A stretch of DNA of 64,000 nucleotides from a virus. Taxonomy: Duplodnaviria > Heunggongvirae > Uroviricota > Caudoviricetes. Location: the IMG/VR virus record IMGVR_UViG_2684623127_000007, one strand, 5' to 3'. The position numbers are program-made. Shown here piece by piece: positions 9,001 to 12,000 of this stretch (its first letter is position 1; every line of letters begins with the position of its first letter).

Positions 9001-12000
9001 CCTAATGTGCGAGGTTTACGTATCCTTCAGTGTCTCGCGCAAGCTGACGAAGCAGGATTACTGGGAAAACTTCCGGTTGAGATGAAGGTTGCCCAGTGGC
9101 GATGGTTGTATGTGACGACATTCATCAACGAAGAAGAAGACAAGAACGGCACAATTGATGTCCCGAATGAACACGGAACAACAGATCGCGCCGTAATATA
9201 TAACGGGAAGCATGGGGTTATGACGATATATCCCGGCCCCATTCGGTTTGCCTTACAGCAGTATATTGAATGGAATTTAATTCAAAAATACGGCGAGGCA
9301 GAAGGAATGGGTAGAGCGCTGTTTCTTTATCAGAAAATGCTCATTACATACCCAGATAAAGGTTTCATTGTTTCAGACATGGGGCGAGAAGGGCTTGAAC
9401 TCCTTCTGGATGAAATGATTAACGACCTGAATACTCATGGTATGCCAGAAGGCCAGTGACACATTAAATATTAAGAAGAATATAATTCTTCCGTTTTTTA
9501 CTAACCATTTATATGAAAAACAACCGTGAATTAAGCAGAGTAAAACTGCTTTTAATCCTTGCCACAGTACTGACAATAACAGAAATCATTATTCTCTTTA
9601 TTGCGCTGTCTGTCAGTTAAAAATATCGGGATACCACATACCAATGAGACTGTATTTCACAATAGTAATTTTACTGGCAATTATCGCATGCATTTACGGA
9701 TTACTCGTTCCGTTCCTTATATCCATGAAGGATACGATAGCAGTTACTTCTGGCTTTGCACTGGCGTTTCTGACCCCGCCCTGCATTTATGCCATTTACA
9801 AGGGTCTTTCTTTCACTAAGGATAAAAAATGAAAAAAATTATTTTTGCTTTAGCCATTGTTCTGCCGACCATTGGCCTTGTCGGCTGCGATCGCGTTGAA
9901 CCCGGTAATGTTGGCATCAAAGTAAATAAACTGGGCGACGATAAAGGCGTCGGTGAGGTGGTCGGTGTTGGTCGCTACTGGACTGGCTGGAATACTGAAG
10001 TTTACATCTTCCCAACCTTCAAACAAATGAAGACCTACGATGAGCCGTTCAGCTTCCAGATGAGTGACGGCACAACCATCGGCTATCACATCGGTGTTGC
10101 CTACAAAGTTGATCCATCCAAAGTTACCACGGTGTTTCAGACCTACCGCAAAGGCGTGGATGACATTACCGCCACTGACCTGCGCCAGAAGATCGCCGAC
10201 GCACTCAATCGACTGGCCAGCAAAATGACCACCGACAAATTTATCGACGGCGGCAAGTCTGAACTACTGGATGCCGCACTTAAAGACATTCAGGAAGAGA
10301 TGACCCCCATCGGCGTTCAGGTAATGAGCCTCTCTTATGTAGGTAAACCGGAATACCCGCCAACCGTTATCGACAGCATTAACGCCAAAGTCACGGCAAA
10401 CCAGAAAACCCTGCAGCGCGAACAGGAAGTCAAGCAACGTGAAGCGGAGGCCAACATGCTGCGTGCAGAAGCTGCCGGACAGGCTGATGCCATTCGAACA
10501 AAAGCCCTGGCAGAAGCCGATGCCATTCGTTTACGCGGCGAAGCTCTGCGCCAGAACCCTGGCGTCATGGAGCTGGAAGCCATCAACAAGTGGAACGGTA
10601 CACTGCCGCAATACATGACCAGTGGTGCCAATACACCATTTATCCAGATTAAATAACTTACACGCCCGGCAAACCGCCGGGTTAATGGAAAATCAGATGA
10701 ACAACCAGAATACTCAACCGCAAATAATGAACTATGACCCGAATCTGACGTCGTGCGGACGCATGGCAAAACAAACCGTTCGATTAACTTTCGGACTATG
10801 GGAATACCGCGAAACATTCGAAGTTACTGTCGGCGGCAATCTGACCGGACTGGATGTTATCAATTGCGCTATTGAAAGCCTGTACGCAACGCTGCCTTAT
10901 GAAGAAGTCCTGGATGAGCGCACAGGGAAAACGGATATCATGGCCACCATTAATATTGGCGAACTGATATGCCAGGATGAAGACCTGTCCGGGGAACTCT
11001 GGCTTGCCGGGATGCTTATCTCAGCAGAAATTATCAGCATTGAACCCGCTACAAACATACGGCTCTGAAGTTCTCACTATTCAGAGAGCAGGAGAAAAAA
11101 TGTTCGCTCTGATTAATCAGGGACAACTGTATACCGACAGTGCCGGTTACCCGGTAAAAATTGTTCGCTGCATAAACAACACCGTGTTGTACAGAAGATG
11201 TGAAGCGAATGTTTGAAGTGTGGTGCCACTGCCGTGGATGAAAGTTTTATGAGGTTGGCATGCAGACAATCATCTATCAGATAACCCCCAGCAAATGGTG
11301 TACGGAGAGAGTCCTCATTGCATCAACAGGGCTAAAGCCTGGCACCATCGAGCGAGCCAGAAGAAAGTCATGGATGCAGGGAAAAGAATACCGCCATTAC
11401 GCTGTAGAAGGTGATCCGGGGCATTACAGTGAATGCCTGTACAACATCGAAGAAATTATGCGATGGATCGAAAACCAGAAACAACCAGGTGCCAAAAATG
11501 CAAGTTCCGGTTAACCTGTTAATGCTCCTGGACGTCTGGGAGGTTTTATGAGTAACGCATCATACCCGACAGGCGTTGAAAACCATGGAGGATCACTCCG
11601 TATATGGTTTCACTATAATGGCAAACGTGTCAGAGAAAACCTCGGTGTTCCTGACACCGCCAAAAACCGGAAGATCGCTGGTGAGCTTCGCACTTCTGTT
11701 TGTTTTGCAATCAGAATGGGGAGTTTCGACTACGCCGCGCAGTTCCCTAATTCCCCTAACCTGAAACACTTTGGTCTGGGAAAAAGAGAGATAACCGTTA
11801 AGGCACTTTCGGAAAAATGGTTGGACCTTAAGAAAATTGAGATAGGAAGTAATGCATTCAGTCGGTATCAATCCGTGGTGAGAAACATGCTTCCTCGCAT
11901 AGGGGAAAAACGTCTTGCTTCGTCGGTAACAAAGGAAGATTTACTGTTTATCAGGAAAGATTTATTGACCGGGTATCATAATCTTTCTAACGGAAAAACA

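What the first reader, a model, noticed from the sequence alone, without database searches (positions are those of the whole stretch)
9513..10656. SPFH/band-7 lipoprotein with small membrane partners in the early-left operon of prophage A
9829..10656 encodes a lipoprotein (lipobox LVGC) with an SPFH/prohibitin-like core and an Ala/Glu-rich coiled coil. Its ATG overlaps the stop of a 62-aa two-helix membrane protein (9644..9832), and a 35-aa single-TM peptide ORF (~9513..9620) lies just upstream. Cellular SPFH proteins (HflK/HflC, QmcA) regulate FtsH, the protease that sets lambda CII/CIII levels. A phage-borne SPFH module next to the immunity region could therefore tune the lysis-lysogeny decision or act as a membrane-level exclusion or abortive-infection device. 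I cannot match it to any named phage function.
Basis: partly seen in the sequence, partly recalled or inferred. Interest (0 to 1): 0.7.

Follow-up and report, generated by a model that had tools for sequence, protein, structure and literature searches.

The report
Phage two-gene periplasmic SPFH membrane module
The window carries an already-annotated phage gene pair, a tiny two-helix inner-membrane protein coupled to a lipid-anchored SPFH (band-7) protein, that recurs in hundreds of temperate and strictly lytic phages; its function is unknown, and it is probably not specific to the lysis-lysogeny switch.

Summary
9829..10656 is a genuine SPFH/band-7 lipoprotein (Pfam E 1e-30; its predicted fold matches HflK/C, prohibitin, erlin and stomatin). 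Its ATG overlaps the stop of a 62-aa two-helix membrane protein. The 35-aa ORF is weakly supported and occurs only in this phage lineage.

The region is 100% identical to several Stx2 phages and 93% to phiP27 (gene L05). RefSeq already names the large gene "SPFH domain-containing protein".

The pair is a conserved, mobile module:
- It occurs in P2-like, HK97-like and P1-like phages and in phage-plasmids.
- It also occurs in obligately lytic N4-like, BcepF1-like, phiCbK-like and crAss-like phages.
- SPFH homologues are in 389 of 50,697 phage records and about 10% of complete E. coli genomes.
- About 18 of 150 family representatives fuse partner and SPFH into one protein.

My inference is that the partner sits N-in/C-in in the inner membrane and the SPFH protein forms a ring on the periplasmic face. 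Expression is probably with early, repressor-controlled lytic genes. The role is untested; I favour conditioning of the infected cell's envelope, most likely superinfection exclusion.

The FtsH/cII idea has been floated in genome papers. It is weakened by the module's presence in lytic phages and by failure of the HflK/HflC family cut-offs. No known defence-system model matches.

The parts
9644..9832 (+). 62-aa partner: a two-helix inner-membrane hairpin, predicted N-in/C-in, with conserved motif Y-G-x-x-V-P-x-L-I-S-x-K-D-T between the helices and a Lys-rich tail.
   Evidence: ORF. PHROG 1130, E 7e-23. AF2 model with two helices, pLDDT 76. Family alignment A4. pN/pS 0.23. Sits directly upstream of the SPFH gene in at least 24 of 33 SPFH clusters. 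Band_7 is directly downstream in 4 of 4 distant partner families.
9829..10656 (+). 275-aa SPFH/band-7 lipoprotein precursor. Its start codon overlaps the partner's stop (ATGA), and an AAGGA Shine-Dalgarno lies 7-11 nt upstream.
   Evidence: Pfam PF01145, E 1e-30. PHROG 200 'lipoprotein', E 1e-112. AF2 pLDDT 78. Foldseek against PDB: prohibitin, HflK/C, erlin and stomatin at E 1e-13 to 1e-11, QmcA-YbbJ at E 1e-8. pN/pS 0.03.
9829..9888 (+). Signal peptide (aa 1-19) and lipobox L-V-G-C (Cys20). The next residue is Asp, the E. coli inner-membrane retention signal.
   Evidence: Sequence. A lipobox is found in 229 of 247 related loci and in 111 of 142 family representatives. The +2 rule is established knowledge, not tested here.
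9892..10452 (+). SPFH (band-7) domain, aa 22-208.
   Evidence: Pfam envelope. Beta-rich SPFH1 and alpha/beta SPFH2 elements in the model.
10360..10554 (+). Long Ala/Glu/Gln/Arg-rich helix (aa 178-242), equivalent to the coiled-coil wall of SPFH cages.
   Evidence: Aligned full-length to cage-forming SPFH chains.
10555..10653 (+). Conserved C-terminal tail (aa 243-275; motif INKWNGTLPQYM). Confidence is low in the monomer model; it may form the cap in an oligomer.
   Evidence: Invariant columns in alignments A2 and A3. pLDDT below 50 for residues 245-275. The cap role is inference.
9513..9620 (+). 35-aa single-hydrophobic-segment ORF. Doubtful gene, restricted to this lineage.
   Evidence: see observation check.
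10664..10682 (+). GC-rich hairpin (7-bp stem, -14.1 kcal/mol) 8 nt after the SPFH stop, with no U tract. It lies near the 3' end of the Fraca match (about 10670); it could be an RNA-stabilising element or a weak terminator.
   Evidence: The Fraca match ends at about window 10670. Not flagged as a terminator.
9475..9499 (+). Weak AT-rich hairpin (-4.9 kcal/mol) followed by U6, just upstream of the 35-aa ORF.
   Evidence: z -2.0. Not flagged by the terminator scan.
7519..7547 (+). Best sigma-70-like promoter on this strand (TTGACA-17-TAATAT), between the repressor gene and the first downstream gene. Candidate early-left promoter that would drive the operon containing the module.
   Evidence: 10 of 12 matches. 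Consensus match only; promoter-like sites in the region are not enriched over shuffles.

Best explanation
This is a horizontally mobile, two-gene phage accessory module.

Architecture. The 62-aa protein inserts in the inner membrane as an N-in/C-in hairpin. The translationally coupled 275-aa protein is exported, lipid-modified at Cys20 and retained on the outer leaflet of the inner membrane (Asp at +2). Like every SPFH protein solved so far, it then oligomerises through its long helix into a ring or cage. Here the cage would sit on the periplasmic face, enclosing a membrane patch that holds the partner and perhaps host proteins.

Expression. The module is transcribed with repressor-controlled early lytic genes: the operon running from the repressor to int here, the Pe operon in P2-like phages, the Pban operon in P1-like phages, and early or middle DNA-metabolism clusters in lytic phages.

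Role. Its job is to condition the envelope of an infected cell. I commit to blocking genome entry of secondary phages (superinfection exclusion) as the most likely single role. It is not a dedicated lysis-lysogeny regulator.

What is shown: the ORFs and their coupling, the SPFH fold, the lipobox, conservation of the pair, in-frame fusions, strong purifying selection, and the distribution across phages. What is inferred: membrane topology, oligomeric ring, timing of expression, and biological role.
For: Fold and family.

Periplasmic orientation:
- A lipobox or an uncleaved N-terminal anchor is found throughout the family.
- In-frame natural fusions have the order 2TM, then signal-like segment, then lipobox, then SPFH. 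They occur in about 18 of 150 family representatives and are homologous to the partner profile (97% probability, E 6e-11). This fixes the partner's C-terminus in the cytoplasm and the SPFH domain outside.
- The closest solved sequence relative is periplasm-facing HflK.

Obligate pairing:
- ATGA overlap.
- A partner lies upstream in at least 24 of 33 SPFH clusters, plus Burkholderia clusters mis-scored by my script.
- Band_7 lies downstream of 4 of 4 distant partner families.

Early, repressor-controlled placement:
- Window gene order and promoter-like site.
- P88 early operon between cox and the replication gene.
- P1 variant, where the pair lies between an intact Oban/Pban and ban.
- Lytic phages place the pair among RNA polymerase, dUTPase, DNA polymerase and nuclease genes, and never next to lysis or structural genes in the loci read.

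Accessory and mobile character:
- Present in only some members of a genus (PMC8540360).
- 92% protein identity between unrelated phage types, with a mosaic joint at the lipobox.
- pN/pS 0.03.

Gram-negative hosts dominate the host list, which fits a periplasmic function.

Precedent for exclusion (established knowledge, not tested here): T4 Imm is a small two-TM protein and Sp a periplasmic one; P1 Sim, HK97 gp15 and TP-J34 Ltp (a lipoprotein) act at the cytoplasmic membrane to block DNA entry.
Against: No experiment on any family member addresses exclusion. The family has no sequence relationship to known exclusion proteins; its PHROG hits are only 'lipoprotein' and 'membrane protein'. PADLOC finds nothing.

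The +2 residue is not Asp outside Enterobacterales and Burkholderia; Ser, Thr, Gly and Glu are common. Inner-membrane retention is therefore not established family-wide.

A possibly related Pasteurella prophage protein is produced by the lysogen and found in outer-membrane vesicles (PMC9872710). That would argue against 'early lytic only' and 'inner membrane'. Its homology to this protein was not verified.

Expression timing here rests on gene order and consensus matches only. The ring assembly and the contact with the partner could not be modelled with the single-chain tool.
Confidence: 0.4

Rival explanations
1. HflK/C mimic. The phage SPFH ring captures or displaces host FtsH on the periplasmic side. 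This changes turnover of FtsH substrates (a CII-like activator in temperate phages; LpxC, sigma-32 or membrane proteins in lytic ones) and so tunes lysogenisation or host physiology.
For: HflK is the closest solved sequence relative (E 1.4e-3, residues 116-239), and HflK/C chains are among the top fold matches. The inferred periplasmic orientation is the same as HflK/C. The module lies in the operon that in lambda holds the FtsH inhibitor cIII (established knowledge). The window phage has a PHROG 'CII-like regulator' at 7566..8303.
Against: It fails the HflK and HflC equivalog cut-offs by a wide margin. There is one subunit rather than an HflK/HflC pair, and a lipid anchor rather than a transmembrane helix. 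The module is widespread in obligately lytic phages with no lysogeny decision (PMC8540360). Fold similarity is equally strong to prohibitin, erlin and stomatin, so it says nothing specific about FtsH.
Confidence: 0.12
2. Lysogen-expressed moron. The pair is transcribed in the prophage state and benefits the host, either as an abortive-infection or exclusion device against other phages or as a surface/vesicle lipoprotein affecting virulence and host immune recognition.
For: The module has moron-like features: GC composition differing from its neighbours, a hairpin directly after the gene, and mosaic boundaries. It lies on the repressor's strand, so read-through from the maintenance promoter is conceivable. 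A Pasteurella prophage HflK/C-like protein of 25-35 kDa is made by the lysogen, is found in vesicles, and affects virulence, capsule and serum sensitivity (PMC9872710). About 10% of complete E. coli genomes carry the gene.
Against: No consensus promoter lies directly upstream; the nearest candidate, GTGACA-N19-TATAAT at 9456..9486, has a long spacer and was not called. The hairpin has no U tract. In P2-like and P1-like phages the pair sits inside repressor-controlled early operons. Lytic phages, which have no lysogen to protect, carry it too. There is no PADLOC match. Homology of PM0222 to this protein is unverified.
Confidence: 0.15
3. Membrane-integrity or lysis-timing device. The ring stabilises the inner membrane or sequesters pore-formers (the phage's own holin, or host abortive-infection effectors that depolarise the membrane). 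This prevents premature collapse of the infected cell, a role analogous in outcome to T4 rII.
For: The module is early-expressed and periplasm-facing at the membrane, and is carried by both lytic and temperate phages. The partner has the size and N-in/C-in two-helix layout of class II holins (the holin comparison is from general knowledge). Cellular SPFH proteins are linked to membrane-stress responses, for example Bacillus YdjI with PspA (PMC8581546).
Against: The pair is never adjacent to endolysin, holin or spanin genes in the loci read. There is no sequence similarity to holins or rII. No experimental data exist.
Confidence: 0.15

Closest known systems
HflK/HflC-FtsH complex of E. coli
   Same: SPFH1/2 domains, a long helix and a C-terminal tail. 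The domain is on the periplasmic side of the inner membrane. HflK is the best sequence match among solved structures.
   Different: HflK/C is a heteromer of two paralogues anchored by N-terminal transmembrane helices and encloses FtsH. Here there is one subunit, a lipid anchor and a 62-aa two-helix partner. Family cut-offs are not met. No FtsH link was tested.
SPFH-NfeD operons (QmcA-YbbJ, PDB 8z5g; YqiK-YqiJ; archaeal stomatin-STOPP)
   Same: An SPFH gene is co-transcribed with a small membrane partner. The solved QmcA-YbbJ complex is among the fold matches.
   Different: NfeD partners carry a soluble OB-fold domain, and those SPFH domains face the cytoplasm. The phage partner is only a helical hairpin with no Pfam match, and the SPFH domain faces the periplasm.
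Phage SPFH lipoproteins already in databases (phiP27 L05, P88 gp12, phi1026b gp48, BcepF1/Maja 'HflC/HflK family inner membrane lipoprotein', KpCHEMY26 gp29; PHROG 200)
   Same: Direct homologues at 37-100% identity, with the same lipobox and the same upstream membrane gene.
   Different: None in kind; the window copy is simply another member. These records give only annotations, often wrong ones ('serine protease', 'transposase fusion protein'), and no function.
Superinfection-exclusion proteins acting at the cytoplasmic membrane (T4 Imm and Sp, P1 Sim, HK97 gp15, TP-J34 Ltp)
   Same: Small membrane, periplasmic or lipoprotein phage products that are early or accessory. T4 combines a two-TM protein with a periplasmic one. 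This comparison is from general knowledge.
   Different: No sequence or fold relationship, and none of them is an SPFH protein. This is a functional analogy only, and it is untested.
Pasteurella multocida prophage protein PM0222 (PMC9872710)
   Same: A prophage-encoded 'HflK/C-like' SPFH protein of 25-35 kDa, and the only one with experimental phenotypes.
   Different: It is reported in outer-membrane vesicles and as a TLR1/2 agonist and virulence factor.

Membership tests
SPFH / band-7 superfamily (Pfam PF01145) | Domain profile match above the curated cut-off | tested here: met
   107.3 bits against 23.6, E 1.2e-30, profile positions 2-176 of 176.
SPFH / band-7 superfamily (Pfam PF01145) | SPFH fold followed by a long helix, as in cage-forming members | tested here: met
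   AF2 pLDDT 78, helix H178-242. Foldseek E 6e-14 to 1e-8 to prohibitin, HflK/C, erlin, stomatin, flotillin and QmcA.
SPFH / band-7 superfamily (Pfam PF01145) | Assembly into a high-order ring or cage on a membrane | not testable with these tools
   Only single-chain prediction is available; inferred from all solved relatives.
HflK / HflC (FtsH modulators) | Equivalog-level sequence match | tested here: not met
   TIGR01932 (hflC) 22.8 bits against 134.4. TIGR01933 (hflK) 19.6 against 159.4. NF008181 17 against 660.
HflK / HflC (FtsH modulators) | Two paralogous subunits, each with an N-terminal transmembrane anchor | tested here: not met
   There is one SPFH gene, with a cleavable lipoprotein signal peptide. 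No second copy exists in the window.
HflK / HflC (FtsH modulators) | Physical association with FtsH and an effect on its substrates | not testable with these tools
   Needs pull-down and substrate half-life assays.
SPFH-NfeD operon | Partner carries an NfeD/OB-fold domain | tested here: not met
   The 62-aa partner has no Pfam or NCBIfam hit. The model is two helices only.
SPFH-NfeD operon | Membrane partner gene adjacent and co-oriented with the SPFH gene | tested here: met
   ATGA overlap. The arrangement is conserved across phage families. Natural fusions exist.
Bacterial lipoprotein, inner-membrane retained | n-region, h-region and lipobox [LVI][ASTVI][GAS]C, with Asp at +2 | tested here: met
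   MKK-IIFALAIVLPTIG-LVGC-D. A lipobox is present in 229 of 247 loci. Actual lipidation and sorting were not tested.
Known or candidate anti-phage defence systems (PADLOC-DB v2) | Match to any component model | tested here: not met
   No family at E <= 0.1 for the 35-aa, 62-aa or 275-aa proteins.
Moron (autonomous promoter-gene-terminator insert) | Own promoter upstream and an intrinsic terminator downstream | tested here: inconclusive
   No consensus promoter was called before the module. The downstream hairpin is stable but lacks a U tract. Composition and mosaic joints are moron-like.
Superinfection-exclusion proteins | Homology to a characterised exclusion protein | tested here: not met
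   PHROG hits are only 'lipoprotein' and 'membrane protein'. No literature link was found.
Superinfection-exclusion proteins | Blocks DNA entry or plating of secondary phage | not testable with these tools
   Needs plating and DNA-entry assays.

The most novel reading that the evidence does not exclude
The pair is a minimal, self-contained periplasmic SPFH cage system that phages of Gram-negative bacteria deploy early in infection. It would fence off a patch of inner membrane, giving broad exclusion of other phages' DNA entry, protection against membrane-acting host defences, or capture of a host complex such as FtsH. This would be the first defined biological function for a viral SPFH protein and a two-component model for how SPFH cages work.
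Probability: 0.25. Interest if true: 0.7.

Novelty: new variant of a known kind. Interest (0 to 1): 0.42.

Why it matters
SPFH proteins are universal, but what their cages actually do is still debated. Phage copies have been annotated for over twenty years, often wrongly, without a single functional test that I could find.

This analysis changes how the gene should be studied:
- It always travels with a tiny two-helix partner and is sometimes fused to it.
- It faces the periplasm.
- It is carried by lytic as well as temperate phages.

The unit to study is therefore the pair rather than the SPFH gene alone. The likely arena is the infected cell's envelope rather than the lambda-style CII/FtsH switch.

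The module is small (about 1 kb). It is present in about 10% of complete E. coli genomes, including Stx phages and P1-like phage-plasmids, and it is easy to clone. The question is cheap to test.

If the module turns out to be an exclusion or counter-defence device, it would add a new mechanistic class. If not, it remains an ordinary, already-annotated accessory gene.

Tried and rejected
- PADLOC scan of all module proteins: no hit, so it cannot be filed under any catalogued defence system.
- NCBIfam: only sub-threshold HflK, HflC and FloT matches, so HflK/C membership is rejected.
- Promoter and terminator scan: nothing convincing directly flanking the module, and promoter-like sites are not enriched over shuffles. 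My hand-found GTGACA-N19-TATAAT at 9456..9486 has a poor spacer.
- Genome-contig scan: only 11 loci, because of the exact-pattern requirement.
- First viral scan: 80 near-identical loci, useful only for allele statistics. Diversity came from scans with distant queries and from annotated phage records.
- afdb50 fold library: not available.
- The P1 genome paper (PMC523184) is not held. I first suspected that P1 plp is this gene; it is not. P1 plp is 125 aa on the other strand.
- The T4-like genomes paper lists SPFH ORFs in 44RR, Aeh1 and RB43 but says nothing about imm or exclusion.
- Literature searches for SPFH with anti-phage, superinfection, holin or phage-encoded found only genome-annotation remarks. 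One search was rejected for syntax.
- PM0222 homology could not be verified because no sequence was available.
- The 35-aa ORF was considered as a third component and rejected as unsupported.
- A multimer or partner-complex prediction was not possible with the single-chain tool.
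Full report
**What is there.**

The three ORFs are exactly as described: 9513..9620 (35 aa), 9644..9832 (62 aa) and 9829..10656 (275 aa). The last two overlap as ATGA, and an AAGGA ribosome-binding site lies before the 275-aa start.

The 275-aa protein begins MKKIIFALAIVLPTIGLVGC|D. This is a textbook lipoprotein signal with Asp at +2.

- It matches Pfam Band_7 at E 1.2e-30 over the whole profile.
- It matches PHROG 200 'lipoprotein' at E 1e-112.
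- An AlphaFold model (pLDDT 78) shows a signal helix, a beta-rich SPFH domain, one long helix (178-242) and a low-confidence tail.
- Foldseek aligns the model full-length to the cage-forming SPFH proteins. These are prohibitin, HflK/C, erlin and stomatin at E 1e-13 to 1e-11, and flotillin and QmcA-YbbJ at 1e-9 to 1e-8.

The 62-aa protein matches PHROG 1130 'membrane protein' and is modelled as two helices.

**Where it sits.**

All genes from the S24-type repressor (6734..7453) to xis (11260..11514) and int (11548..12834) are on the + strand. The best promoter-like site, TTGACA-17-TAATAT, lies at 7519..7547, just after the repressor gene. 'Early-left operon' is therefore a fair description.

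No consensus promoter is called directly before the module. A stable hairpin without a U tract follows the SPFH stop, and a weak hairpin plus U6 precedes the 35-aa ORF.

The region is 100% identical to several Stx2-converting phages and 93% identical to phiP27. There the gene is L05, annotated 'putative serine protease' or 'lipoprotein'. RefSeq calls it 'SPFH domain-containing protein' and the 62-aa gene 'hypothetical protein'. RefSeq does not call the 35-aa ORF.

**The 35-aa ORF.**

It is intact in 21 alleles, but all are from the phiP27-like lineage. Its pN/pS is 0.59, against 0.23 for the 62-aa gene and 0.03 for SPFH. It has no Shine-Dalgarno sequence. I treat it as doubtful and not part of the module.

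**The pair is a conserved module, not a feature of this immunity region.**

The same arrangement occurs in very different phages:

- P88, a P2-like phage, in the early operon between cox and the replication gene.
- Fraca, an HK97-like phage.
- A P1 variant, with an unannotated partner ORF. The pair lies between an intact C1 operator/Pban and ban.
- Phage-plasmid-sized contigs, including one labelled Yersinia pestis.

tblastn finds the SPFH protein in 389 of 50,697 phage records. These include obligately lytic groups: N4-like, rV5-like, FelixO1-like, LUZ24-like, BcepF1-like and phiCbK-like phages, jumbo phages, crAss-like phages and Lak phages. The ten most frequent host genera are all Gram-negative.

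Reading those records, a two-TM ORF of 60-100 aa ends at or overlaps the SPFH start in:

- KpCHEMY26 (gp28/gp29)
- Maja (114/113)
- phi1026b (gp49/gp48)
- Vibrio phage CKB-S1
- phiCbK (141/142)
- crAss-like phage cr128_1, where the ORF is unannotated

Across 247 loci collapsed to 33 SPFH clusters, 24 have such a partner. At least two of the three clusters scored 'none' are Burkholderia cases where my start-picking failed.

The rV5-like and FelixO1-like loci have no membrane ORF directly upstream, and TL has only a single-TM ORF.

Starting from the partner instead, a profile search found 90 proteins. In 4 of 4 distant families checked, the next gene is Band_7. One contig has lost the Band_7 gene.

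The partner consensus is: M-[KR]-x-Y, TM1, Y-G-x-x-V-P-x-L-I-S-x-K-D-T, TM2, then a Lys-rich tail.

**Fusions fix the topology.**

Among 150 family representatives, 24 are at least 320 aa long. About 18 of these carry the partner fused in frame to a signal-like third hydrophobic segment, then the lipobox Cys, then SPFH. One such extension matches the partner profile at 97% probability, E 6e-11.

This is Rosetta-stone evidence that the two proteins work together. It also implies the layout N-in, TM1 out, TM2 in, signal segment out, and SPFH domain in the periplasm.

Family members without a lipobox have an uncleaved N-terminal anchor instead. That gives the same orientation, which is also the orientation of HflK/C, the closest solved sequence relative.

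**Evolutionary behaviour.**

- The mature SPFH protein is 92% identical between the window and P88, and about 91% identical to P1-like copies. The signal peptide and partner are diverged, at 24% identity.
- DNA similarity to P88 and P1-like copies starts at about window 9877-9882, at the lipobox.
- GC content rises from 0.34-0.40 in the small ORFs to 0.51 in the SPFH gene.
- The SPFH gene has high synonymous diversity but pN/pS of 0.03.
- 536 of 5,426 complete E. coli genomes carry it, with 199 of the matching places on plasmids.

So the SPFH gene is a strongly constrained, frequently exchanged accessory gene. It is present in only some members of a genus (PMC8540360).

**How it most likely works.**

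By analogy with every solved SPFH assembly, the lipoprotein should form a ring or cage through its long helix. Here the cage would sit on the periplasmic face of the inner membrane, with the partner hairpins in the enclosed patch. This is inferred, not shown.

In temperate carriers the pair lies in repressor-controlled early operons. In lytic carriers it lies among early or middle DNA-metabolism genes. In the loci read it is never next to lysis or structural genes. I therefore think it acts early in productive infection, on the envelope.

Among possible roles I rank superinfection exclusion first. The precedents are small membrane, periplasmic or lipoprotein exclusion factors in T4, P1, HK97 and TP-J34 (general knowledge). 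Membrane protection or lysis-timing comes next, then lysogen-expressed conversion, then FtsH modulation. None of these is tested.

**Comparison with known systems.**

- It is a member of the SPFH superfamily: both defining features that could be tested here were met.
- It is not HflK or HflC. It falls far below the cut-offs and has a single subunit with a lipid anchor.
- It resembles SPFH-NfeD operons in having a co-transcribed membrane partner. However, the partner lacks the NfeD/OB domain and the orientation is opposite.
- No PADLOC model matches.

**Literature.**

I found only annotation-level remarks.

- The HflK/C-lysogeny idea appears in PMC4936722, PMC10269572 and PMC8540360. The last says the role 'is still not clear' because obligately lytic phages also encode the protein.
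- PMC13239085 guesses at a role in adsorption or DNA entry.
- The one experimental study concerns a Pasteurella prophage 'HflK/C-like' protein, found in vesicles and linked to virulence (PMC9872710). I could not verify that it belongs to this family.

**Verdict.**

The specific FtsH/immunity framing is weak.

The gene itself is ordinary and already annotated. What is modestly new is that the unit is an obligate, sometimes fused, periplasm-facing pair shared by lytic and temperate phages.

Noticed in passing
family representatives P0159, P0164, P0169, P0172, P0175, P0178, P0180, P0181, P0201, P0202, P0206, P0216, P0225, P0237, P0243, P0258, P0270: These are natural in-frame fusions of the two-TM partner to the SPFH lipoprotein precursor. 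They still retain a lipobox Cys after the third hydrophobic segment. They may be cleaved by signal peptidase II into the two usual products.
   Followed up: partly
window about 9877-9890 (lipobox codons): A mosaic joint lies here. DNA similarity to P2-like and P1-like copies begins at the lipobox, GC jumps from 0.40 to 0.51, and synonymous diversity of the SPFH gene (0.20) is more than three times that of the two upstream ORFs (0.06) in the same loci.
   Followed up: partly
L257 versus L258: These two metagenomic phage contigs have the same gene order. In L257 the Band_7 gene is missing while the two-TM gene remains, which looks like a natural deletion variant.
   Followed up: no
L013 (Candidatus Symbiopectobacterium) 5897-6825: Both genes of the pair are interrupted by stop codons, although tblastn still aligns residues 1-275 at 80% identity. 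This is a decaying copy in an endosymbiont genome.
   Followed up: no
L014 (contig labelled 'MAG: archaeon isolate PL23a_bin.95') 5808-6300: A two-TM ORF and the start of an SPFH lipoprotein (64% identity over residues 1-81 only) lie on a contig binned as archaeal. It is probably a misbinned bacterial or phage contig.
   Followed up: no
GenBank phage records listed: The family carries many misleading product names: 'serine protease', 'transposase fusion protein', 'putative transposase', 'peptidyl-tRNA hydrolase', 'mobile element protein' and '2-polyprenylphenol hydrolase' (the last on an overlapping neighbour). The partner ORF is unannotated in cr128_1 and in P1 variant MH445380.
   Followed up: partly
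L248 (P1 variant MH445380) 3199-6212 versus P1 reference L250 11652-13001: In P1-like variants the pair replaces the tRNA, plp, upl and tci segment between the C1-controlled Pban and ban. The operator and promoter sequence is identical to reference P1.
   Followed up: partly
window 7566..8303: The first gene after the repressor encodes a protein with two HTH domains. It matches PHROG 4836 'CII-like regulator' (E 3e-92) and, more weakly, PADLOC RmrA and PDC-M64 HTH components.
   Followed up: no
window 13702..14352 (- strand), with 13309..13553 and 14585 onward: Just outside the integrase end of the prophage lies a DUF1076 gene. I suspect an NleG-type effector from its N-terminal sequence, but did not test this. 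It is flanked by IS3 and IS630 pseudogene remnants.
   Followed up: no
window 10697..11068 and 11101..11205: A DUF5406 gene (PHROG 3409) and a truncated DUF4222 pseudogene lie between the module and xis. Neither accompanies the module in other phages.
   Followed up: no
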